Positions 1-43,802 of a stretch of DNA of 64,000 nt are shown here, one piece after another. The notes under the pieces are model-generated. The model was not told the origin of the DNA. It saw nothing but the letters and a program-made list of their open reading frames with translations, and did no database searches. Numbering within the stretch: the first letter of the stretch is position 1; the number at the start of each line of letters is the position of its first letter. Made by a program: the position numbers and the translations under genes. The stretch is from Escherichia coli (GTDB lineage: Bacteria > Pseudomonadota > Gammaproteobacteria > Enterobacterales > Enterobacteriaceae), in NCBI RefSeq assembly GCF_009931435.1, contig NZ_CP043414.1; one strand, written 5' to 3'.

Positions 1-136
1 AGCACAGGCGATCAAAAACACCGATATTGCTGAAGAACTTGAACTGCCGCCGGTGAAAATTCACTGTTCTATTCTGGCAGAAGACGCGATCAAAGCCGCC
101 ATTGCGGACTATAAAAGCAAACGTGAAGCAAAATAA
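1..136 (+). CDS. iscU: Fe-S cluster scaffold protein IscU, 3' end only (5' part outside window)
   Basis: Frame 1 translates to ...EELELPPVKIHCSILAEDAIKAAIADYKSKREAK then TAA at 134-136; matches the conserved IscU C-terminus; followed 16 nt later by iscA. Confidence 0.85.
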   Translation, partial: AQAIKNTDIAEELELPPVKIHCSILAEDAIKAAIADYKSKREAK

Positions 137-152
137 GAGTTGAGGTTTGGTT

Positions 153-476
153 ATGTCGATTACACTGAGCGACAGTGCAGCAGCGCGAGTAAATACCTTT
201 CTGGCTAACCGCGGCAAAGGGTTTGGCCTGCGTCTGGGTGTGAGAACCTCCGGATGTTCAGGTATGGCTTATGTACTGGAATTTGTTGACGAACCGACGC
301 CGGAAGACATCGTGTTTGAAGACAAAGGCGTGAAAGTCGTGGTCGATGGCAAAAGCCTGCAATTTCTGGACGGTACGCAACTGGATTTCGTAAAAGAAGG
401 CCTGAACGAAGGGTTTAAATTTACCAACCCGAACGTCAAAGATGAGTGTGGTTGCGGCGAAAGCTTCCACGTTTGA
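153..476 (+). CDS. iscA: Iron-sulfur cluster assembly protein IscA (A-type carrier)
   Basis: ORF 147-476 (TTG at 147, ATG at 153 giving [13 protein letters not shown]...); C-terminal CGCGESF cysteine motif; position between iscU and hscB. Confidence 0.93.
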
Positions 477-571
477 TGCGCATACCGATAACCCCACCGT
501 GGTCAGCTGCGCGTGGGGTTTGTTTTACCTGATTCGTCGTTATTGCGGCGGATCGCAGCCCTGAGAATGTT

Positions 572-1087
572 ATGGATTACTTCACCCTCTTTGGCTTGCC
601 TGCCCGTTATCAACTCGATACCCAGGCACTGAGCCTGCGTTTTCAGGATCTACAACGTCAGTATCATCCTGATAAATTCGCCAGCGGAAGCCAGGCGGAA
701 CAACTCGCCGCCGTACAGCAATCTGCAACCATTAACCAGGCCTGGCAAACGCTGCGTCATCCGTTAATGCGCGCGGAATATTTACTTTCTTTGCACGGTT
801 TTGATCTCGCCAGCGAGCAGCATACTGTGCGCGACACCGCGTTCCTGATGGAACAGCTGGAGCTTCGCGAAGAACTGGACGAGATCGAACAGGCGAAAGA
901 TGAAGCACGGCTGGAAAGCTTTATCAAACGTGTGAAAAAGATGTTTGATACCCGCCATCAGTTGATGGTTGAACAGTTAGACAACGAGACGTGGGACGCG
1001 GCGGCGGATACCGTGCGTAAGCTGCGTTTTCTCGATAAACTGCGAAGCAGTGCCGAACAACTCGAAGAAAAACTGCTCGATTTTTAA
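572..1087 (+). CDS. hscB: Co-chaperone HscB (J-domain protein for Fe-S cluster biogenesis)
   Basis: 171-aa ORF with J-domain HPD motif (QYHPDKF); sits upstream of hscA. Confidence 0.93.
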
Positions 1088-1103
1088 TTTCTGGAAGCTA
1101 AAC

Positions 1104-2954
1104 ATGGCCTTATTACAAATTAGTGAACCTGGTTTGAGTGCTGCGCCGCATCAGCGTCGTCTGGCGGCCGGTATTGACCTGGGCACAACCAACTCGCTGG
1201 TGGCGACAGTACGCAGCGGTCAGGCCGAAACGTTAGCCGACCATGAAGGCCGTCACCTGCTGCCCTCTGTTGTTCACTATCAACAGCAGGGGCATTCGGT
1301 GGGTTATGACGCGCGCACTAACGCAGCGCTTGACACCGCCAACACCATTAGTTCTGTTAAACGCCTGATGGGGCGCTCGCTGGCTGATATCCAGCAACGC
1401 TACCCGCATTTGCCTTATCAATTCCAGGCCAGCGAAAACGGCTTGCCGATGATTGAAACAGCAGCGGGATTGCTGAATCCGGTGCGCGTTTCTGCGGACA
1501 TCCTCAAAGCACTGGCGGCGCGGGCAACTGAAGCCCTGGCAGGCGACTTGGATGGTGTCGTTATCACCGTTCCGGCGTACTTTGACGATGCCCAGCGTCA
1601 GGGCACCAAAGACGCGGCGCGTTTGGCTGGGCTGCATGTTCTGCGCTTGCTTAACGAACCGACCGCTGCGGCTATCGCCTACGGACTGGACTCCGGTCAG
1701 GAAGGCGTGATCGCTGTTTATGACCTCGGTGGCGGGACGTTTGATATTTCCATTCTTCGCTTAAGTCGCGGCGTGTTCGAAGTGCTGGCGACCGGCGGTG
1801 ATTCCGCGCTCGGCGGCGATGACTTTGACCATCTGTTAGCAGATTACATTCGCGAACAGGCGGGCATTCCTGACCGTAGCGATAACCGCGTTCAGCGTGA
1901 ACTGCTGGATGCCGCCATTGCGGCCAAAATCGCGCTGAGCGATGCGGACTCTGTGACCGTGAATGTTGCGGGCTGGCAGGGTGAAATCAGCCGTGAACAA
2001 TTCAATGAACTGATCGCGCCATTGGTAAAACGAACCTTACTGGCTTGTCGTCGTGCGCTGAAAGACGCGGGCGTTGAGGCTGACGACGTACTGGAAGTGG
2101 TGATGGTTGGTGGTTCTACCCGCGTGCCGCTGGTGCGTGAACGGGTGGGTGAATTTTTCGGTCGTCCACCGCTGACTTCCATCGACCCGGATAAAGTCGT
2201 CGCTATTGGCGCGGCGATTCAGGCGGATATTCTGGTGGGTAATAAGCCGGACAGCGAAATGCTGTTGCTTGATGTGATCCCGCTGTCGCTGGGCCTGGAA
2301 ACCATGGGCGGCCTGGTGGAGAAAGTGATCCCGCGTAACACCACAATTCCGGTGGCGCGCGCCCAGGATTTCACCACCTTTAAAGATGGTCAGACGGCGA
2401 TGTCTATCCATGTAATGCAGGGTGAGCGTGAGCTGGTGCAGGACTGCCGCTCGCTGGCGCGTTTTGCGCTGCGTGGTATTCCGGCGCTACCGGCTGGCGG
2501 CGCGCATATTCGCGTAACGTTTCAGGTCGATGCTGATGGTCTTTTGAGCGTGACGGCGATGGAGAAATCCACCGGCGTTGAGGCGTCTATTCAGGTTAAA
2601 CCGTCTTATGGTCTGACCGACAGTGAAATCGCTTCGATGATCAAAGACTCAATGAGCTATGCCGAGCAGGACGTAAAAGCCCGTATGCTGGCTGAACAAA
2701 AAGTAGAAGCAGCGCGTGTACTGGAAAGTTTGCACGGCGCGCTGGCTGCTGATGCCGCGCTGTTAAGCGCCGCAGAACGTCAGGTCATTGACGATGCTGC
2801 CGCTCACCTGAGTGAAGTGGCGCAGGGCGATGATGTTGACGCCATCGAACAAGCGATTAAAAACGTAGACAAACAAACCCAGGATTTCGCCGCTCGCCGC
2901 ATGGACCAGTCGGTTCGTCGTGCGCTGAAGGGCCATTCCGTGGACGAGGTTTAA
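1104..2954 (+). CDS. hscA: Hsp70-type chaperone HscA
   Basis: ORF 1050-2954; ATG at 1104 gives [10 protein letters not shown]... (616 aa); Hsp70 motifs IDLGTTNS and DLGGGTFD. Confidence 0.95.
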
Positions 2955-2955
2955 T

Positions 2956-3291
2956 ATGCCAAAGATTGTTATTTTACCTCATCAGGATCTCTGTCCTGAT
3001 GGCGCTGTTCTGGAAGCGAATAGCGGTGAAACCATTCTCGACGTTGCGCTGCGTAACGGCATCGAGATTGAACACGCCTGTGAAAAATCCTGTGCTTGCA
3101 CCACCTGCCACTGCATCGTTCGTGAAGGTTTTGATTCGCTGCCGGAAAGCTCAGAGCAGGAAGACGACATGCTGGACAAAGCCTGGGGGCTGGAGCCGGA
3201 AAGCCGTTTAAGCTGCCAGGCGCGCGTTACCGACGAAGATTTAGTGGTCGAAATTCCGCGTTACACTATCAACCATGCGCGTGAGCATTAA
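2956..3291 (+). CDS. fdx: [2Fe-2S] ferredoxin Fdx (isc operon)
   Basis: 111-aa ORF with cysteine cluster [12 protein letters not shown]; start 2 nt after hscA stop. Confidence 0.93.
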
Positions 3292-3302
3292 CAGAGGTTA
3301 GT

Positions 3303-3503
3303 ATGGGACTTAAGTGGACCGATAGCCGCGAAATTGGCGAAGCACTGTACGATGCATATCCCGATCTTGATCCGAAAACGGTTCGATTCACTGATATGCA
3401 TCAGTGGATTTGCGATCTGGAAGATTTCGACGACGACCCGCAGGCGTCCAACGAGAAAATCCTCGAAGCGATTTTATTAGTCTGGCTGGACGAAGCCGAG
3501 TGA
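3303..3503 (+). CDS. iscX: Fe-S assembly accessory protein IscX (YfhJ)
   Basis: 66-aa acidic ORF directly after fdx, typical isc operon position. Confidence 0.88.
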
Positions 3504-3680
3504 TTTCCGCGTCATGCTTCACGCCGCAGATGCGTTGGCTGCGCTCGTTCACCCCAGTCACATAGTTATCTATGTTCCTGAGGCTTCACTCACTTGCCGC
3601 CTTCCTGCAACGCGAATCATTTAGCGGAAAAATCCTGGGGCTGCCAACTGGTGGCCCTTTTACAAATAAGGATAACTAAA

Positions 3681-4964
3681 ATGACAGAAGCGATGAAGAT
3701 TACCCTCTCGACCCAACCTGCCGACGCGCGCTGGGGAGAAAAAGCAACTTACAGCATTAATAATGACGGCATTACCCTGCATTTGAACGGGGCAGACGAT
3801 CTGGGGCTGATCCAGCGTGCGGCGCGCAAGATTGATGGTCTGGGCATCAAGCATGTTCAGTTAAGCGGTGAAGGCTGGGATGCGGATCGTTGCTGGGCAT
3901 TCTGGCAAGGTTACAAAGCCCCGAAAGGCACGCGTAAAGTGGAGTGGCCGGATCTGGACGATGCCCAGCGTCAGGAACTGGATAACCGCCTGATGATCAT
4001 CGACTGGGTGCGTGACACCATCAACGCACCAGCAGAAGAACTGGGGCCATCGCAACTGGCACAGCGTGCTGTTGATCTGATCAGCAACGTCGCAGGCGAT
4101 CGTGTGACTTACCGGATCACCAAAGGTGAAGATCTGCGCGATCAAGATTATATGGGGCTGCACACTGTCGGGCGTGGTTCAGAACGTTCCCCGGTATTGC
4201 TGGCGCTGGATTACAACCCAACTGGCGATAAAGAAGCGCCGGTGTACGCGTGCCTGGTAGGTAAAGGCATCACCTTTGATTCCGGCGGCTACAGCATCAA
4301 ACAGACCGCGTTTATGGACTCAATGAAGTCTGACATGGGCGGTGCGGCAACGGTTACCGGGGCGCTGGCATTTGCCATTACGCGCGGTCTGAACAAGCGT
4401 GTGAAGCTGTTCCTCTGCTGTGCGGATAACCTGATTAGCGGCAACGCGTTCAAACTGGGCGATATCATTACCTATCGCAACGGTAAAAAAGTCGAAGTCA
4501 TGAACACCGATGCGGAAGGGCGTCTGGTTCTGGCAGATGGCCTGATTGACGCCAGTGCGCAGAAACCGGAACTGATTATCGATGCCGCGACACTCACCGG
4601 GGCGGCGAAAACCGCGCTGGGTAATGATTATCACGCATTGTTCAGTTTTGACGATGCGCTTGCCGGTCGCTTGCTGGCGAGTGCTACACAAGAGAACGAA
4701 CCGTTCTGGCGTCTGCCGCTGGCTGAATTCCACCGCAGCCAGCTGCCATCTAACTTTGCGGAACTGAACAATACCGGAAGCGCGGCGTATCCGGCGGGTG
4801 CAAGTACGGCGGCGGGCTTCCTGTCGCACTTTGTTGAGAACTATAAACAAGGTTGGCTGCATATCGACTGTTCGGCGACTTACCGTAAAGCACCAGTTGA
4901 ACAGTGGTCTGCGGGTGCGACCGGGCTGGGTGTGCGCACGATTGCTAATCTGTTAACGGCGTAA
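3681..4964 (+). CDS. pepB: Aminopeptidase B (M17 family peptidase)
   Basis: ORF 3594-4964; ATG at 3681 gives [10 protein letters not shown]... (427 aa); M17 active-site region NTDAEGRL. Confidence 0.93.
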
Positions 4965-4971
4965 ACTAATA

Positions 4972-5071
<100 letters not shown>

Positions 5072-5106
5072 CTTGTGCCCCGAACGTTGAATGAATTGTG
5101 GTTCTT

Positions 5107-5883
5107 ATGTCCGAAACAAAAAACGAACTTGAAGACCTGCTGGAAAAAGCAGCAACCGAACCGGCGCACCGCCCGGCCTTTTTCCGTACTCTACTGGAAT
5201 CCACTGTCTGGGTACCAGGTACGGCGGCGCAGGGCGAGGCAGTGGCTGAAGATAGCGCGCTTGATTTACAGCACTGGGAAAAAGAAGATGGCACCAGCGT
5301 TATTCCTTTTTTTACCTCGTTAGAAGCACTTCAACAGGCGGTTGAAGACGAACAGGCATTTGTCGTAATGCCCGTTCGCACATTGTTTGAGATGACCCTT
5401 GGCGAAACGCTCTTCCTTAATGCCAAACTGCCAACCGGTAAAGAATTTATGCCGCGTGAAATCAGTTTGCTGATTGGTGAAGAAGGGAATCCGCTGAGCA
5501 GTCAGGAAGTACTGGAAGGCGGTGAATCGCTGATATTATCGGAGGTCGCAGAGCCGCCAGCACAAATGATTGATTCACTTACCACCTTATTTAAAACCAT
5601 TAAGCCGGTGAAGCGTGCTTTTATTTGTTCAATTAAAGAGAACGAAGAGGCACAGCCTAATTTACTTATTGGCATTGAAGCTGATGGCGATATCGAAGAA
5701 ATTATTCAGGCGGCGGGAAGTGTAGCGACCGATACATTACCTGGTGATGAACCAATCGATATTTGCCAGGTGAAAAAAGGGGAAAAAGGAATTAGCCACT
5801 TTATTACCGAACATATTGCGCCATTCTATGAACGTCGCTGGGGTGGATTCCTGCGTGATTTTAAACAAAATCGGATAATTTAA
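5107..5883 (+). CDS. sseB: SseB (enhanced serine sensitivity protein B)
   Basis: ORF 5098-5883 (GTG at 5098); ATG at 5107 gives MSETKNELEDLLEKA... (258 aa); position between pepB and sseA. Confidence 0.85.
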   Translation: MSETKNELEDLLEKAATEPAHRPAFFRTLLESTVWVPGTAAQGEAVAEDSALDLQHWEKEDGTSVIPFFTSLEALQQAVEDEQAFVVMPVRTLFEMTLGETLFLNAKLPTGKEFMPREISLLIGEEGNPLSSQEVLEGGESLILSEVAEPPAQMIDSLTTLFKTIKPVKRAFICSIKENEEAQPNLLIGIEADGDIEEIIQAAGSVATDTLPGDEPIDICQVKKGEKGISHFITEHIAPFYERRWGGFLRDFKQNRII

Positions 5884-6381: not shown

Positions 6382-7227
6382 TTATTTCAATGGCTCAACC
6401 GGTAAATCTGCCCGTGCGCCCCATTCACTCCATGCGCCGTCGTACAGTTTCACGTTTGGCACATCCAGCGTCGCGAGTGCCAACAAAACCACGGCTGCCG
6501 TTACACCAGAACCGCAGCTGACGATAATTGGTTTGTCGTAGCTGACACCGCGACCAAAAAATATCGCATCCAGTTCATCGGTCGTTTTTAGTTCGCCTTC
6601 ACGGACCAGTTCCGTCCACGGAACGTTCAATGCACCGGGAATATGTCCGCGACGTAAACCTGGGCGAGGTTCATCAACTTCTGCGTTAAAACGTGTAGCC
6701 GGGCGGGCATCAATAATTTGCGCCGTATTTTCATGGCTTGCCAATAATACATCGGTTACTTTCACCACGGCTTCAGGATTAAACGCGGCGTTAAACTCTC
6801 CTTCCGGCAGCTCTACTGCGCCTTCTTCTAATAGCAGATCATCACGCTGCCAGCCTGCAAGTCCACCACCCAGAATCGACACTTTCTCTACACCAAAGGT
6901 GCGCAGCATCCACCATGCGCGTGGGGCTGAGAAAAGATTACCTTCGTCATAGACAATCAGGTGCTTATCCTGGTTAACGCCTAACTCACGCATCGCCACG
7001 GCGAACGTTTCCGGGCGCGGCAGCATGTGCGGAAGCGGGGAAGTGTGATCAGAAAGCGCTTCGATATCGAAAAACACTGCGCCGGGAATATGTCCATTCA
7101 GATACTCCTGGGCAACGTTACGATCTTCCTGTCCAGGCGGTGCCATGCGGGCATCGATAATCTGAATTTCCGGGTCATCAATATGTTCGGCGAGCCAGTC
7201 GGCTCCTACAAACCATGTCGTGGACAT
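6382..7227 (-). CDS. sseA: 3-mercaptopyruvate sulfurtransferase (tandem rhodanese)
   Basis: ORF 6382-7239; internal ATG gives MSTTWFVGADW... (281 aa); rhodanese active-site loop CGSGVTA. Confidence 0.9.
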   Translation of the reverse strand: MSTTWFVGADWLAEHIDDPEIQIIDARMAPPGQEDRNVAQEYLNGHIPGAVFFDIEALSDHTSPLPHMLPRPETFAVAMRELGVNQDKHLIVYDEGNLFSAPRAWWMLRTFGVEKVSILGGGLAGWQRDDLLLEEGAVELPEGEFNAAFNPEAVVKVTDVLLASHENTAQIIDARPATRFNAEVDEPRPGLRRGHIPGALNVPWTELVREGELKTTDELDAIFFGRGVSYDKPIIVSCGSGVTAAVVLLALATLDVPNVKLYDGAWSEWGARADLPVEPLK

Positions 7228-38880: not shown

Positions 38881-40458
38881 ATGACGGAAAACATTCATAA
38901 GCATCGCATCCTCATTCTGGACTTCGGTTCTCAGTACACCCAACTGGTTGCGCGCCGCGTGCGTGAACTGGGTGTTTACTGCGAACTGTGGGCGTGGGAT
39001 GTGACAGAAGCACAAATTCGTGACTTCAATCCAAGCGGCATTATTCTTTCCGGCGGCCCGGAAAGCACCACCGAAGAAAACAGCCCGCGTGCGCCGCAGT
39101 ATGTCTTTGAAGCAGGCGTACCGGTATTCGGCGTTTGCTATGGTATGCAGACCATGGCAATGCAGTTGGGTGGTCATGTTGAAGCCTCTAACGAACGTGA
39201 ATTTGGCTATGCGCAGGTTGAAGTCGTAAACGACAGCGCACTGGTTCGCGGTATCGAAGATGCTCTGACAGCAGACGGTAAACCTCTGCTCGATGTCTGG
39301 ATGAGCCACGGCGATAAAGTTACCGCTATCCCGTCCGACTTCATCACCGTAGCCAGCACCGAAAGCTGCCCGTTCGCCATCATGGCAAATGAAGAAAAAC
39401 GCTTCTATGGCGTACAGTTCCACCCGGAAGTGACTCATACCCGCCAGGGGATGCGCATGCTGGAGCGTTTTGTGCGTGATATCTGCCAGTGTGAAGCCCT
39501 GTGGACGCCAGCGAAAATTATCGACGATGCAGTAGCCCGTATCCGCGAGCAGGTAGGCGACGATAAAGTGATCCTCGGCCTCTCTGGTGGCGTGGATTCC
39601 TCCGTGACTGCAATGCTGCTGCACCGCGCAATCGGCAAAAACCTGACTTGCGTATTCGTTGACAACGGCCTGCTGCGTCTCAACGAAGCAGAGCAGGTTC
39701 TGGATATGTTTGGCGATCACTTTGGTCTGAACATTGTTCACGTTCCGGCAGAAGATCGCTTCTTGTCAGCGCTGGCTGGTGAAAACGATCCGGAAGCAAA
39801 ACGTAAAATCATCGGTCGCGTTTTCGTTGAAGTATTCGATGAAGAAGCGCTGAAACTGGAAGATGTGAAGTGGCTGGCGCAGGGTACTATCTACCCTGAT
39901 GTTATCGAATCTGCCGCGTCTGCAACCGGTAAAGCTCACGTCATCAAATCTCACCACAACGTGGGCGGCCTGCCGAAAGAGATGAAGATGGGCCTGGTTG
40001 AACCGCTGAAAGAGCTGTTCAAAGACGAAGTGCGTAAAATTGGTCTGGAGCTGGGCCTGCCGTACGACATGCTGTACCGTCACCCGTTCCCGGGACCAGG
40101 GCTTGGCGTTCGTGTGCTGGGCGAAGTGAAGAAAGAGTACTGCGACCTGCTGCGCCGTGCTGATGCCATCTTCATTGAAGAACTGCGTAAAGCGGACCTG
40201 TACGACAAAGTTAGCCAGGCGTTTACCGTGTTCCTGCCGGTACGTTCTGTTGGCGTAATGGGCGATGGTCGTAAATACGACTGGGTTGTGTCTCTGCGTG
40301 CCGTCGAAACCATCGACTTTATGACCGCACACTGGGCACATCTGCCGTACGATTTCCTTGGTCGCGTTTCCAACCGCATTATCAATGAAGTGAACGGTAT
40401 TTCCCGCGTGGTGTATGACATCAGCGGCAAGCCGCCAGCGACTATTGAGTGGGAGTAG
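38881..40458 (+). CDS. guaA: GMP synthase (glutamine-hydrolysing)
   Basis: 525-aa ORF; GATase motif GVCYGMQ; PP-loop SGGVDSSV; C-terminal ...PPATIEWE. Confidence 0.97.
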
Positions 40459-40503
40459 GACTGGCTATAAATAGTAAATTAAGCCTTTCCAACTAACTTT
40501 AAT

Positions 40504-40536
40504 GCCAGTCAGTTTGCTGACTGGCATTTTTTATTG
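40504..40536 (+). terminator. guaA rho-independent terminator (gccagtcagtttgctgactggc then attttttatt)
   Basis: Perfect hairpin plus T-tract 45 nt after guaA stop. Confidence 0.7.
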
Positions 40537-40752: not shown

Positions 40753-41529
40753 TTATGAGCCATTGGTAATCGCACCCATGACAATTTGAAAGAGTTCTTC
40801 TGCTCGATTAGTGGAGCCAATTGCACCTCTTTCTCTCGCCATTCTCTTGTGCTCTGGTAGATCTGAGGACGCATAGATCATAAAAGGAGTTTTGTCTCCC
40901 ATTGCGCGTAATCTTTCTAGTAAGACATAACCTTCTTGCGCCCCTTCTTTGCGATCCATATCCGAAATAATAGCTGCAAACTTATTTGTTTTTAACAATT
41001 CCAAGGCTTCGTCAGTTGAAAGAGCTAAAGCGAACTCTATTCCCTGTGCCTCAAATGCCTGTCTTTCGTAAACATTATTTTCTGGTCGATCATCCACCCA
41101 TAAAATACGATTTCGCCATTTTTCATGCTTACTCTGCCGTTTTGCATTGGATACAACGTTGACGATTTTTTGCAGTTGGCTTTCAGTGACCCCTGCACTA
41201 TTTTCAGGCTGTTTTGCTGTGGCGGCGGTCAATGATGCTGCTGTAGCTATTTGCGCTCTTAAAAAATTATTTTCATCTTTGAAATCTGACGGCCCGTAAA
41301 GCTTATTATGATGTTTCGCAACAAGCCAGAGAAAGCCAAGAAACACAATGACAGGAAAGAAAACCATGAAATAAATAAGGGGAGCTATATGCTCTGATAA
41401 GCCATTACCAAAGCCAACGACGAAAGAGGCAAATCCATAAACGAGAACAATAAAGAGTGCAATGATACCAAGAGGGCTTTTGGTAAATCCTATTGCAGTT
41501 TCAGCAAATTTCTCTGGTTCCATATCCAT
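40753..41529 (-). CDS. Hypothetical membrane protein: two N-terminal TM helices plus a C-terminal CheY-like receiver-like domain (accessory gene, not in K-12 layout)
   Basis: 258-aa ORF; TM segments GIIALFIVLVYGFASFVVGF and IAPLIYFMVFFPVIVFLGFLWLV; C-terminal REC-like pattern ILWVDDRPENN / AAIISDMDR / TPFMIYASSD / GAIGSTNRAEEL with N/R where the conserved REC Lys is expected; AT-rich codon usage. Confidence 0.7.
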   Translation of the reverse strand: MDMEPEKFAETAIGFTKSPLGIIALFIVLVYGFASFVVGFGNGLSEHIAPLIYFMVFFPVIVFLGFLWLVAKHHNKLYGPSDFKDENNFLRAQIATAASLTAATAKQPENSAGVTESQLQKIVNVVSNAKRQSKHEKWRNRILWVDDRPENNVYERQAFEAQGIEFALALSTDEALELLKTNKFAAIISDMDRKEGAQEGYVLLERLRAMGDKTPFMIYASSDLPEHKRMARERGAIGSTNRAEELFQIVMGAITNGS

Positions 41530-41616
41530 CCTCAGTATTGCTCATAACACAGTTAAGTTGTATTAGATCAGACCTGATCTGACAATTACCGGCTATTTAT
41601 AAAGGTATCTGTCAGA

Positions 41617-42012
41617 TTACATCTGGCTTAAGTTTTTCTCATCCCAGATGTGCTTTCCATCAAGTAACGTTTCCATCGGCGTTCGGCCACTGCACATTTT
41701 TCCCTGATGGGTTCGCTCATTATTATAGTGAACCCGCCATTCATCAAGAACCGATTGTAATGCTTCAAGATCATCATATAACTTTTTGCGGAACGTCACC
41801 TGATAAAACTCGTTCAGTATCGTTTTATGGAACTGCTCGCAGATACTATTGGTCTTAGATGACATTGCTTTCGTTTTCGTATGCTCAATATCATTTATCG
41901 CCAGATAAAGCTGGTAATCATGCTGCTCCACTTTACCGCAATCTCTTGGTGTATTGAGAGGCGGGTTATAAAATAAATACTGATACCATGAGGGCGGATC
42001 AATCGTGGTCAT
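41617..42012 (-). pseudogene. Truncated DDE (rve-type) transposase, C-terminal fragment only: IS remnant
   Basis: 131-aa ORF with integrase-core C-terminal signatures NSICEQFHKTILNEF and WRVHYNNERTHQG...GRTP; upstream DD catalytic region and DNA-binding N-terminus are absent. Confidence 0.6.
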
Positions 42013-42027
42013 AGTATCAGGTCATTC

Positions 42028-43542
42028 TCATGGGTTTATTGCGTCCCTGAAGATGACGTCGCTGACCATCTCTCCTCCAAGAAAATCGATCAACATATTC
42101 GAGTTTTCAAGGTCTTCTCTGGTCAATGCCCCGATTGCTTGTCCAACTACTACCTCCCAAGGTTTTTTACACTCAACAATAGCACAGACGAGTTGGCGGA
42201 TTTTCTTGATCTTCTTGTGACGCAATCGGTCGTTCGATTCCATTAGTTCTGCAATCAACGCTATGTCGGAGTGTGTTTGATTATCCTCAACCCATTTTTT
42301 GGCTGCGTCTACAAATTCCACCCATGTAACATTCATTACTGCAAGGCATGAATCAGTCAAAAGAACATTTTCGATAGCGTAGCATCGTAAGCGATAGCGT
42401 TTAAGAGGTAGGCGATGTTCAAGCGACTTGTTGATTACACCATCGCCATCACGAAGGGAAAAGGCGATTGGATTGTCATAGAGTGTACTAAGGAGGTCTA
42501 CGCAAAAATCCTCAAGTTGACTCTGTTGATCTACGCTACCTGCTAGTACGGGAAAGATTTTTATTCGACCCTGTGATGTTCTGGCCGCTTGTTGCCAGAC
42601 TCGTTCGTCGTCCTCTCCTTCCAAAATTAATGCAGCGTCTTCGCTAAGAGAAAGCGATAGGGGGTGCCCGAAGAATGGTGCAATCTTTCGAAGTTCATCG
42701 CTGGCCGGTATCAATGAGATTTCATTTACTGCAAAGCTCTTCGTGCCGATTGATACATATGGGGAGGCGGCAAGAGAACAGACGAGCGGGGAACTATGGG
42801 TGGATAAGCATATGGCAATACTGTTCGCGTGTGTTCTAAATTCGTCGAGCATACTGATTATCAGCTTGCCCAGTCTAGCTTGGAGGTCGGGGTGCAGATG
42901 TACATCAGGCTCATCGAGGAGGAGTACGTTGAATTTCTCCGGATCTATTGTGTCGAAGAAATAGATGATTTCCGCGGCTAATGCAACCGCTTCCGATTCA
43001 CCGCTACTGATTTGGGCCGGATCAATAATCTGACCATCTACAAGTGATCGAAACTCATAATCGACATTACCCATCTCGAGCGAAATGTTAGTGAGAAGCT
43101 GATTAATTTTACTTAATCGGTCTGTCTGAAAGTTTCGCGTTAGATCAGTTCGAATTTCCGGAGTATTGGCAAGTCGACGTAAGTAAAGCGTCTCGGCCTC
43201 GCGAAATAGCATAGCCGATGCAGCTTTGAAGTTGCTTGCCTGATTAACTGCCCGAGTGTGCCTCAGCCATTCGGGGTTGTCGCTCATATTTGTGAGGACG
43301 GTGCCATCACGCTTGAACGATCCTGCTCGCTCTGGACTTACATACCGGACATAAAATTGCTGCTTGTTCTGGCTGATTGTTTGTTCGATATCGCGAAGGA
43401 AACGACTTTTTCCCGCACCGTTTCGGCCCATAATTATGTTGATGTTGTTTAAGCCGTAAAGTCGGCCAATTTGGCTAGATAACTCGCTTACTTTCAAGAT
43501 TGTAACTCCATTTCTTGTTGCCACATACGGTAACAAATACAC
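42028..43542 (-). CDS. OLD-family-like ATPase-nuclease (ABC-type ATPase fused to TOPRIM-like domain); accessory gene
   Basis: 504-aa ORF with GTG start at 43542; Walker A GRNGAGKS (43405-43428), ABC-signature-like ISSGES, Walker B/D-loop VLLLDEPDVHLHP, H-loop STHS; C-terminal TOPRIM-like LILEGEDDE (~42610-42630) and RDGDG (~42440-42454). Confidence 0.75.
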   Translation of the reverse strand: MYLLPYVATRNGVTILKVSELSSQIGRLYGLNNINIIMGRNGAGKSRFLRDIEQTISQNKQQFYVRYVSPERAGSFKRDGTVLTNMSDNPEWLRHTRAVNQASNFKAASAMLFREAETLYLRRLANTPEIRTDLTRNFQTDRLSKINQLLTNISLEMGNVDYEFRSLVDGQIIDPAQISSGESEAVALAAEIIYFFDTIDPEKFNVLLLDEPDVHLHPDLQARLGKLIISMLDEFRTHANSIAICLSTHSSPLVCSLAASPYVSIGTKSFAVNEISLIPASDELRKIAPFFGHPLSLSLSEDAALILEGEDDERVWQQAARTSQGRIKIFPVLAGSVDQQSQLEDFCVDLLSTLYDNPIAFSLRDGDGVINKSLEHRLPLKRYRLRCYAIENVLLTDSCLAVMNVTWVEFVDAAKKWVEDNQTHSDIALIAELMESNDRLRHKKIKKIRQLVCAIVECKKPWEVVVGQAIGALTREDLENSNMLIDFLGGEMVSDVIFRDAINP

Positions 43543-43573
43543 TAACTGAATAGGTGCGTTGATGCCTCATTTT

Positions 43574-43606
43574 GTTCACATCTATGTTGAAATTAGTGAT
43601 GTGAAC
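43574..43606. promoter_or_regulatory. 9-bp perfect inverted repeat (gttcacatc N15 gatgtgaac) upstream of the ATPase gene: candidate operator
   Basis: Read directly: gttcacatc at 43574-43582 and gatgtgaac at 43598-43606, 32-64 nt upstream of the GTG start at 43542. Confidence 0.35.
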
Positions 43607-43802
43607 GAGCTAAGGACTCTATTAGGAGTAGAGCGGCCATATTGTTCGTCTGAACAGCCTGTAGACAGCTCTATTATTGAGACATGGTATTTTTCGTGGT
43701 ATCTGCTAAGTAGTTTGTTTCAAGGCATTGATTTATTTATATTTTATTTTCTCATTGATAGCTGAGTGGGAATGATTTGATCCCTGCACTATGAATTAGC
43801 AA

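What the first reader, a model, noticed from the sequence alone, without database searches (positions are those of the whole stretch)
41617..42012. Decayed DDE transposase fragment wedged between the two accessory genes
Seen in sequence: a 131-aa ORF that retains only the C-terminal part of an rve-type integrase core (NSICEQFHKTILNEF, WRVHYNNERTHQG...GRTP) and lacks the N-terminal DNA-binding and DD catalytic portions. It lies 15 nt downstream of the ATPase gene and 87 nt upstream of the membrane-protein gene on the same strand. Inference: it marks a past IS insertion and deletion, pointing to horizontal acquisition of the island and possibly to disruption of an original operon.
Basis: partly seen in the sequence, partly recalled or inferred. 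Interest (0 to 1): 0.4.

Follow-up and report, generated by a model that had tools for sequence, protein, structure and literature searches.

The report
IS481 transposase remnant joining two islets
The feature is a dead, one-ended leftover of an IS481-family insertion sequence, already annotated as a pseudogene, and it marks the seam between two independently acquired single-gene units inserted at the end of guaA, not a broken operon.

Summary
ORF 41617..42012 (minus strand) carries the C-terminal 107 residues of a DDE transposase. It matches Pfam rve_3 (E 5.5e-10) and NCBIfam IS481 (E 9e-23). It is 88% identical at the amino-acid level and 87% at the nucleotide level to an intact 351-aa IS481-family transposase.

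Three refinements:
1. Only 41559..41940 is IS DNA, the last 382 bp of a ~1216-bp element. The right terminal inverted repeat is intact.
2. The first 24 codons are not IS. They come from a conserved non-coding hairpin tail of the ATPase unit, so the ORF is an accidental fusion.
3. RefSeq already annotates 41617..41940 as an N-terminally truncated pseudogene.

The same remnant is joined to the response-regulator-like (REC) gene by the identical 29-bp spacer in two other settings, with longer IS pieces and no ATPase gene in the DNA available: Kluyvera (398 bp) and an unidentified enterobacterium (482 bp). The ATPase gene occurs next to guaA without REC in Pseudomonas, Vreelandella and Serratia. 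The IS therefore belongs to the REC unit, and no ATPase–REC operon was disrupted.

The 3.3-kb island is flanked by TGAGTGGGA, which contains the published attachment core of GIsul2-type integrases at the guaA 3' end. Horizontal acquisition is confirmed. The finding is ordinary and of low interest.

The parts
41559..41940 (-). IS481-family remnant: the last 382 bp (positions 835-1216 of a ~1216-bp reference element). It covers transposase codons 245-351, the stop codon and the 58-bp non-coding right end.
   Evidence: blastn to the reference IS gives 87.2% over 382 bp, E 8e-134. The alignment with other E. coli copies ends exactly at ...CTAATACA. RefSeq annotates the equivalent of 41617..41940 as 'integrase core domain-containing protein, incomplete, missing N-terminus'.
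41559..41584 (+). Intact right terminal inverted repeat (IRR), TGTATTAGATCAGACCTGATCTGACA, read inward on the + strand.
   Evidence: It matches the IRL of the reference copy (TGTATTAGTCGCGACTTGATCTGACA) at 21 of 26 positions. Homology among three independent copies stops at this terminus. No IRL or any other IS481 piece is present elsewhere in the window.
41617..42012 (-). 131-aa chimeric ORF (the finding). Codons 1-24 come from the ATPase-unit tail and codons 25-131 from the transposase C-terminus.
   Evidence: The ORF is broken by an in-frame stop and a frameshift in K. aerogenes and by several stops and deletions in Kluyvera. The exact sequence is already in public databases under the names hypothetical protein, IS481 family transposase and integrase core domain protein.
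41941..42027 (-). Truncated conserved non-coding tail of the ATPase unit. It includes the hairpin CTGATACTATGA-N17-TCATGGTATCAG (41980-42020) followed by TATTTATTTTAT. The ORF's ATG (42010-42012) lies inside the stem.
   Evidence: The tail is conserved in K. aerogenes, Serratia, P. aeruginosa and Vreelandella. RNA fold: -27.9 kcal/mol, z = -5.1. In Serratia and Pseudomonas the tail continues about 100 bp further to a guaA-end copy. Here it breaks at ...CAAGAGA|TTGCGG.
41530..41558 (-). 29-bp spacer between the IS terminus and the longest REC ORF start. It holds the ribosome-binding region.
   Evidence: It is 100% identical in K. aerogenes and K. pneumoniae and 96.6% identical in Kluyvera. The same junction is present in L043.
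40753..41529 (-). Gene for a protein with a hydrophobic, probably membrane-spanning N-terminal region and a receiver domain (REC). The RefSeq start is 41523, giving 256 aa. This is the proximal unit of the island.
   Evidence: Pfam Response_reg, E 1.8e-7. Homologues at 70-99% identity occur in many Proteobacteria, mostly without the ATPase.
42028..43497 (-). ABC-type (AAA_15/AAA_21) ATPase gene, 489 aa. This is the distal unit of the island.
   Evidence: Pfam AAA_15 5.7e-14 and AAA_21 1.3e-11. PADLOC gives only weak partial hits: PDC-M01A, AriA, AriAB, PtuA, GajA. Homologues are about 80% identical across alpha- and gammaproteobacteria.
40446..40454 (+). TGAGTGGGA at the functional guaA 3' end: the proximal attachment-core copy.
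   Evidence: GAGTGGGA is the published core of GIsul2 att sites at the guaA 3' end (PMC9376610).
43763..43771 (+). TGAGTGGGA(ATGA): the displaced original guaA end, forming the distal attachment-core copy that bounds the island.
   Evidence: The same junction, CCCACTC|AGCTATCAAT, is found in K. aerogenes, K. pneumoniae and P. aeruginosa.

Best explanation
The feature is a non-functional, one-ended remnant of an IS481-family insertion sequence.

Proposed history:
- A complete element of about 1.2 kb inserted 29 bp upstream of the REC gene start, in the same orientation, in an ancestor of the REC unit.
- Its left part (left inverted repeat, promoter, HTH region and both catalytic Asp residues) was then lost. 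The 5' cut differs between lineages.
- In the lineage of this window (E. coli, K. pneumoniae/K. variicola, K. aerogenes), the cut end at IS position 835 is fused to the truncated non-coding tail of a neighbouring, separately acquired ATPase unit.
- That fusion removed about 100 bp of the tail and the internal guaA-end attachment copy that should separate the two units. I infer that an illegitimate deletion caused it.

The fusion accidentally placed an ATG from the tail's hairpin in frame with the transposase C-terminus, creating the 131-aa ORF. The ORF has no function of its own.

The two units now form a single 3.3-kb integrase-less island bounded by TGAGTGGGA at the guaA 3' end.

Shown by the data: the identity, extent and terminus of the IS, the nested truncations, the independence of the two genes, and the flanking attachment cores. 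Inferred: the order of events and the deletion mechanism.
For: IS identity:
- (rve_3; IS481 model E 9e-23; 94/107 aa to an intact transposase).
- for the extent (positions 835-1216) and the IRR.
- RefSeq marks a pseudogene at exactly these coordinates.

Chimeric start:
- Searches show that the sequence 41941-42027 is the conserved tail following ATPase homologues in five genera.
- One search shows the hairpin.
- The reading frame is not conserved: 5 codons in Vreelandella and 22 in P. aeruginosa (read from the sequences).

No selection on the ORF:
- There is a stop plus a frameshift in K. aerogenes, and there are deletions and stops in Kluyvera.
- The IS-coding part diverges faster (90.4% and 83.6% identity) than the REC coding sequence (96.5% and 93.4%) in the same genome pairs.

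IS belongs to REC:
- The IRR-REC junction is identical in all carriers, with nested 5' ends at IS positions 735 (L043), 819 (Kluyvera L038/L039/L040) and 835 (this lineage). No ATPase gene is seen in the available DNA of the first two.

Independent units:
- ATPase without REC at guaA.
- REC alone at guaA or in other contexts.
- In E. coli the three parts always co-occur, in the same count of 27 genomes.

Island boundaries and attachment cores. Published core: PMC9376610.
Against: No genome was found that carries the presumed intermediate: a full-length IS next to REC, or an ATPase unit and a REC unit still separated by an internal attachment copy. The order of events therefore remains a reconstruction.

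Two 5' break points lie only 16 bp apart (positions 819 and 835). That is unexpectedly close for independent deletions and may mean a two-step erosion from one ancestral truncation.

The E. coli copy has no stop or frameshift across 107 codons, so expression of a peptide cannot be excluded from sequence alone.

I could not assign an ISfinder name because the database is not available here.
Confidence: 0.88

Rival explanations
1. The IS inserted between two genes of a pre-existing ATPase-REC operon and partly deleted afterwards, uncoupling them.
For: The three ORFs are co-oriented and tightly spaced, with gaps of 15 and 87 nt. In E. coli, K. pneumoniae and K. aerogenes the two genes always occur together.
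Against: Every locus that has both genes also has the IS remnant; no pair without the IS was found. The ATPase is next to guaA without REC in P. aeruginosa, Vreelandella and Serratia, and none of the 19 genome loci of ATPase relatives encodes REC. REC with the same IS remnant occurs without the ATPase in Kluyvera. The ATPase gene has its own conserved hairpin tail ending in a guaA-end attachment copy in other genera.
Confidence: 0.04
2. The remnant is retained because it is useful. Its right end supplies the promoter or 5' leader for REC, or passes read-through transcription from the ATPase gene, because the IS displaced REC's own promoter.
For: The IS terminus lies only 29 bp (35 bp from the RefSeq start) upstream of the REC start, so any native -35/-10 further upstream is displaced. 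All three truncation variants keep at least 382 bp of the right end and the identical junction. The IRR contains TTGTCA 17 nt before TACAAC spanning the junction (read from the sequence). IS481 elements are documented to drive neighbouring genes by read-through and by hybrid promoters that use a -35 box in an inverted repeat (PMC6161684).
Against: The promoter scan found no more sites than the shuffled controls (4 against 8.0 expected) and none at the junction. The candidate -35 is not conserved: TTATCA in Kluyvera and TTGTTA in L043. The documented IS481 Pout and Pin promoters lie at the left end, which is deleted here. Retention is also explained trivially, because larger deletions would remove REC itself.
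Confidence: 0.25
3. ORF131 encodes a functional domesticated or chimeric small protein, for example a transposase-derived regulator.
For: The 131-codon frame is open and is preserved exactly on at least 1000 E. coli contigs, and nearly exactly in Klebsiella. The 107 IS-derived codons carry no stop or frameshift.
Against: All intact copies are more than 98% identical in DNA, so they say nothing about selection. The more diverged copies are broken. The N-terminus is encoded by a nucleotide-conserved hairpin whose reading frame is not conserved. The fragment has no DNA-binding domain and only one of the three catalytic residues. PADLOC gives no hit. RefSeq calls it a pseudogene.
Confidence: 0.03

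Closest known systems
IS481-family insertion sequences; the closest annotated relative is the 351-aa 'IS481 family transposase' QMM41258.1 on E. coli plasmid pRHB15-C23_2, CP057768.1
   Same: 87% nucleotide and 88% amino-acid identity over the C-terminal 107 codons. The transposase gene ends in the same way. The terminal inverted repeat begins TGTATTAG.
   Different: Only the last 31% of the element is present. It has no left inverted repeat, no promoter, no HTH region and no DD residues, so it cannot transpose or make transposase.
Other truncated IS481-family copies in E. coli genomes (annotated 'integrase core domain-containing protein' or 'IS481 family transposase', partial; also sequence under ylbG in K-12-like strains)
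   Same: They are 5'-truncated relics of the same kind and share the same right terminus. Matches to this fragment occur in 3387 of 5426 genomes.
   Different: This copy is at a different locus (the guaA island) and has a different break point. It is specifically linked to the REC gene.
GIsul2 and its integrase-less CR2-sul2 unit at the guaA 3' end (PMC9376610)
   Same: Insertion is at the guaA 3' end and is flanked by the GAGTGGGA core. Units lacking their own integrase are bounded by attachment copies. Several elements stack in tandem at the site.
   Different: This island has no integrase, ISCR or resistance genes. Mobilisation in trans is not tested here. The internal attachment copy between the two units is missing, replaced by the IS remnant.
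IS481 of Bordetella pertussis as a driver of neighbouring-gene transcription (PMC6161684)
   Same: Same IS family. The geometry, with the element immediately upstream of and co-oriented with a gene, allows read-through or a hybrid promoter.
   Different: The promoter-bearing left end is deleted here, and no transcription data are available.

Membership tests
IS481 family (insertion sequence) | A single DDE transposase with an rve-type core that matches the IS481 transposase model better than other families | tested here: met
   NF033577 transpos_IS481 scores E 9.3e-23 and 81 bits, against IS3 at 36 bits. The score is below the full-length cutoff of 224 only because 78 of 284 profile positions are present. 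A longer paralogous copy (L003) scores 207 bits, also below the 224-bit cutoff, and its best match is likewise IS481.
IS481 family (insertion sequence) | Complete catalytic D, D, E triad and N-terminal HTH region | tested here: not met
   Only residues equivalent to 245-351 of 351 remain, so E is present and both D residues and the HTH region are absent. It is therefore a relic of the family and not a functional member.
IS481 family (insertion sequence) | Two terminal inverted repeats | tested here: not met
   The IRR is intact at 41559-41584. No IRL is found anywhere in the window.
IS481 family (insertion sequence) | Target-site duplication flanking the element | not testable with these tools
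   Only one end survives, so there is no second flank to compare.
GIsul2-type attachment-flanked unit at guaA | Insertion at the guaA 3' end with the GAGTGGGA core repeated at both boundaries | tested here: met
   TGAGTGGGA is at 40446-40454 and 43763-43771. K-12 has a single copy and a 92-bp intergenic region. The core is as published.
GIsul2-type attachment-flanked unit at guaA | A GIsul2-family tyrosine integrase encoded in the element | tested here: not met
   The island holds only the ATPase gene, the IS remnant and the REC gene. No integrase domain was found.
GIsul2-type attachment-flanked unit at guaA | Excision and integration by site-specific recombination between the attachment copies | not testable with these tools
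   This needs PCR for the circular form or a trap-plasmid assay. Indirect support: the same island is bounded by the same cores in three species with different distal flanks.
Two-gene ATPase + effector defence operon (PARIS, Septu or Gabija-like) | Conserved adjacency of the ATPase with its partner gene across genomes | tested here: not met
   REC is absent from all 19 genome loci of ATPase relatives and from the Serratia and Pseudomonas loci. REC has no PADLOC hit, and the ATPase has only weak partial hits.

The most novel reading that the evidence does not exclude
The guaA 3' end behaves as a cassette-stacking site, where integrase-less single-gene units bounded by GAGTGGGA cores are captured and moved in trans by GIsul2-family integrases. 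On this reading, the deletion ending in the IS481 remnant removed the internal core and welded the ATPase and REC cassettes into one 3.3-kb unit. That unit has since spread between E. coli and Klebsiella, with the IS right end now serving as REC's promoter or leader.
Probability: 0.25. Interest if true: 0.4.

Novelty: already known. Interest (0 to 1): 0.15.

Why it matters
It matters little in itself. Truncated IS copies are common, and this one is already flagged as a pseudogene in RefSeq.

Its practical value is as a marker:
- It shows that the guaA-yfgI island is a composite of two unrelated, separately mobile single-gene units, so it should not be treated as a two-gene system.
- Its nested truncation series gives a relative chronology for the REC unit in Enterobacteriaceae.
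- The chimeric ORF illustrates how an open reading frame can be created by fusing a non-coding hairpin to a transposase tail.

Tried and rejected
- **IS3-family origin.** Rejected: the IS481 model scores 81 bits against 36 bits for IS3, and the DNA is 87% identical to an annotated IS481-family gene.
- **Displaced 5' half or left inverted repeat elsewhere in the window.** None was found by blastn or tblastn of the whole 64 kb.
- **An IS-free or full-IS variant of the island in E. coli.** None exists among 5426 complete genomes. All 27 carriers have the same structure. The plasmid collection gave only one mis-filed chromosome.
- **A conserved small peptide encoded by the tail (MT..PSWYQYLFY).** Rejected: conservation is at the nucleotide level within a hairpin, and the frame stops after 5 codons in Vreelandella.
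- **A known RNA family in the tail or island.** None. The only match is a sub-threshold Qrr hit elsewhere.
- **Promoter or terminator scan.** Promoter-like sites were not enriched over shuffles and none lies at the IS-REC junction. Terminator-like sites were somewhat above shuffles (7 against 3.0 ± 1.9), but none coincides with the tail hairpin.
- **Defence-system membership of ORF131 or REC.** No PADLOC hits.
- **Solved structures for the ATPase.** Only one marginal hit, a retron Ec83 ATPase at E 0.006.
- **ATPase unit inserted into the IS by site-specific recombination.** Rejected: the ATPase tail is itself truncated at the junction and no attachment core is there.
- **Attachment cores flanking alphaproteobacterial ATPase homologues.** None was found. 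Those copies sit in other contexts.

Full report
**Setting**

The window is Escherichia coli chromosome with the gene order xseA, guaB, guaA, a 3.3-kb insertion, then yfgI, yfgH, yfgG and pdeF.

In K-12 only 92 bp separate guaA from yfgI. Aligning that interval to the window places the insertion between 40455 and 43762. The 9-bp sequence TGAGTGGGA is present at both edges, at 40446-40454 and 43763-43771.

All three sizeable ORFs of the insertion lie on the minus strand:
- an AAA_15/AAA_21 ATPase at 42028..43497;
- the 131-aa ORF of the finding at 41617..42012;
- a 256/258-aa protein with a hydrophobic N-terminus and a receiver (REC) domain at 40753..41529.

**Check of the observation**

The ORF, the quoted motifs and the 15-nt and 87-nt gaps are exactly as described. 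The transposase similarity is real:
- Pfam rve_3, E 5.5e-10;
- NCBIfam transpos_IS481, E 9.3e-23, covering profile positions 206-283 of 284, against 36 bits for IS3;
- 94/107 identical residues, with no gap, to residues 245-351 of an intact 351-aa IS481-family transposase on E. coli plasmid pRHB15-C23_2.

The fragment starts directly after the LTDRGTEY motif that carries the second catalytic Asp. It retains the Glu (CEQFHKT) and lacks the HTH region and both Asp residues.

RefSeq annotates the equivalent of 41617..41940 in carrier genomes as 'integrase core domain-containing protein; incomplete; missing N-terminus'. The exact 131-aa sequence is already deposited on at least 1000 contigs under assorted names.

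**Exact anatomy**

Alignment to a reference element of about 1216 bp shows that IS DNA occupies only 41559..41940, which is IS positions 835-1216 at 87% identity. The reference was built from the plasmid copy, with its right tip taken from other E. coli copies.

The right terminus is intact. Three independent copies stop being alike exactly at ...CTAATACA. The terminal 26 bp, TGTATTAGATCAGACCTGATCTGACA at 41559-41584, match the left repeat of the reference at 21 of 26 positions. No other piece of the IS is present anywhere in the 64 kb.

**The first 24 codons are not transposase**

The stretch 41941..42027 aligns with the sequence that follows ATPase homologues in K. aerogenes, Serratia, P. 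aeruginosa and Vreelandella. It forms a stable hairpin, CTGATAC(C/T)ATGA, a loop of 15-19 nt, then TCATGGTATCAG, followed by TATTTATTTTAT. The fold energy is -27.9 kcal/mol with z = -5.1.

The ORF's ATG lies inside the stem. Conservation here is at the nucleotide level and the reading frame is not kept: it runs 22 codons in Pseudomonas and 5 in Vreelandella.

In Serratia and Pseudomonas this tail runs on for about 100 bp and ends in a copy of the guaA end (CTCA(C/T)T(C/T)CCACTC). In the window it breaks at ...CAAGAGA|TTGCGG, where the IS fragment begins. The 131-aa ORF is therefore an accidental in-frame fusion.

**Whose IS was it?**

REC homologues were traced into other genomes, with these results:
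- K. pneumoniae/K. variicola and K. aerogenes have the same ATPase, remnant, REC, guaA arrangement.
- Kluyvera sichuanensis has REC next to guaA without the ATPase gene. It has the same IS remnant joined to REC by the same 29-bp spacer, but with 16 more IS bases, starting at IS position 819.
- An unidentified enterobacterial contig (L043) has the same junction with 100 more bases, starting at position 735. That piece includes the TDRGTEY codons. The contig ends about 120 bp further upstream, so what lies beyond is unknown.

These three nested 5' ends share a common 3' junction. That shows one ancestral insertion upstream of REC, eroded differently in different lineages.

**Decay**

The K. aerogenes copy has an in-frame stop and a frameshift. 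The Kluyvera copy has deletions and several stops.

| Segment | Identity to K. aerogenes | Identity to Kluyvera |
|---|---|---|
| IS coding part | 90.4% | 83.6% |
| REC coding sequence | 96.5% | 93.4% |
| 29-bp spacer | 100% | 96.6% |

They fit a pseudogene lying next to a constrained gene.

**Operon or seam?**

ATPase homologues are about 80% identical across alpha- and gammaproteobacteria. They lie directly beside guaA without REC in P. aeruginosa (162-bp gap) and Vreelandella. In Serratia they lie near guaA with unrelated genes (hipA and others) in between. An ICE lies downstream of the ATPase unit, at its guaA-end copy, in other P. aeruginosa strains.

None of the 19 further genome loci encodes REC. 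REC occurs alone at guaA in Kluyvera and in unrelated contexts in Dickeya and in metagenomes. Every locus with both genes also has the IS remnant. The 'original operon' reading is therefore not supported, and the remnant marks the seam between two units.

**Nature of the island**

GAGTGGGA is the published core of the attachment sites used by the GIsul2 integrase at the guaA 3' end. The same study showed that an integrase-less unit bounded by such sites can be moved in trans (PMC9376610).

The ATPase unit's distal junction, CCCACTC|AGCTATCAAT, is conserved in E. coli, K. aerogenes, K. pneumoniae and P. aeruginosa. E. coli KC-Dl-1 has a prophage inserted at the same core between guaA and REC. 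Contig L039 has a relaxase-bearing element there. The site accumulates elements in tandem.

The K. pneumoniae island is 98.5-99.7% identical to the window while guaA is about 90% identical. The drop in identity falls at the island edge, and the distal flanks differ between species. The fused island has therefore moved recently as one piece. In E. coli it is present in 27 of 5426 complete genomes, always in the same form.

**Proposed history (inferred)**

1. The ATPase unit integrated at guaA.
2. The REC unit, already carrying an IS481-family element upstream of REC, integrated proximally.
3. A deletion from the ATPase tail into the IS interior removed the internal attachment copy and fused the two units.

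Short similarities at the joint (…AATAC…AGAG…) are compatible with illegitimate recombination, but this is not demonstrated. No intermediate genome was found.

**Possible residual role**

The IS end sits 29-35 bp from the REC start, so REC's own promoter must lie in, or be replaced by, IS sequence or read-through transcription. IS481 elements are known to drive neighbouring genes (PMC6161684).

Several points argue against a role here:
- The documented promoters are at the left end, which is deleted.
- The promoter scan shows nothing above chance.
- The candidate -35 in the IRR is not conserved.

I give this secondary reading about 25%.

**Verdict**

The feature is an ordinary IS481-family relic that is already annotated, so it is of low interest. 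The context is a modest side result: integrase-less single-gene units stacked at the guaA attachment site and welded together by the deletion that ends in the IS.

Noticed in passing
window 42028-43771; loci L007, L008-L013, L015, L034: The ATPase gene forms a discrete unit of about 1.9-2.2 kb with a conserved distal junction (CCCACTC|AGCTATCAAT) and a conserved hairpin tail ending in a guaA-end copy. It sits at the guaA 3' end in E. coli, Klebsiella, Serratia, P. aeruginosa and Vreelandella. The protein is about 80% identical even to alphaproteobacterial copies, which are not near guaA. It has only weak, partial matches to the ATPases of defence systems (AriA, PtuA, GajA).
   Followed up: partly
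window 40753-41529; loci L038-L047: The 256-aa REC protein with a hydrophobic N-terminus is a widely transferred stand-alone gene. Homologues are 70-99% identical in Klebsiella, Kluyvera, Acidithiobacillus, Pseudomonas, Pectobacterium, Dickeya, Vibrio and Nitrosomonas, in varied contexts. No cognate kinase gene is adjacent and it has no PADLOC hit. Its function is unknown.
   Followed up: partly
window 41980-42020 (minus strand): This is a 12-bp-stem hairpin with a 17-nt loop. The stem is invariant across five genera apart from one change: the window has a C-to-T substitution that keeps pairing only as G-U. That would favour an RNA role, such as a terminator of the ATPase gene, over a DNA role. 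It is a single observation.
   Followed up: partly
L001 (E. coli KC-Dl-1) 1-3000: A prophage, shown by tail-spike, holin, endolysin and DUF2514 genes, is inserted at the same GAGTGGGA core between guaA and the REC unit. This shows the site is re-used.
   Followed up: partly
L034 (K. pneumoniae) 1766-4496: The ATPase gene of the same island is split by an IS3-family element into 214-aa and 274-aa pieces in K. pneumoniae. The ATPase is therefore dispensable there while REC stays intact.
   Followed up: no
L010 (Serratia) about 6560-6610: There is a 26-bp tandem duplication (AATACGCAAAGAGAAAAGCTATTAAT) in the ATPase tail of one Serratia strain, compared with another (L008).
   Followed up: no
window 40465-40534 (+): This is a sub-threshold Rfam Qrr match (24 bits against a gathering score of 50, E 0.24). 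It overlaps a strong terminator-like hairpin (40501-40528) just downstream of the new guaA end. It is most likely only the island-borne guaA terminator.
   Followed up: no
L004 (E. coli AVS0068) 5001-5123: A further relic of an IS481-family right end, 75% identical, lies between a large 'response regulator receiver domain' protein gene and a phosphorothioate-dependent restriction gene. The surrounding region is ICE-like, with MobH and ArdC genes.
   Followed up: no
E. coli genomes in general: Short matches to this IS fragment occur in 3387 of 5426 complete E. coli genomes, including sequence under the K-12 ylbG pseudogene. All the closely related (>90% identity) E. coli chromosomal copies I inspected were truncated.
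   Followed up: partly
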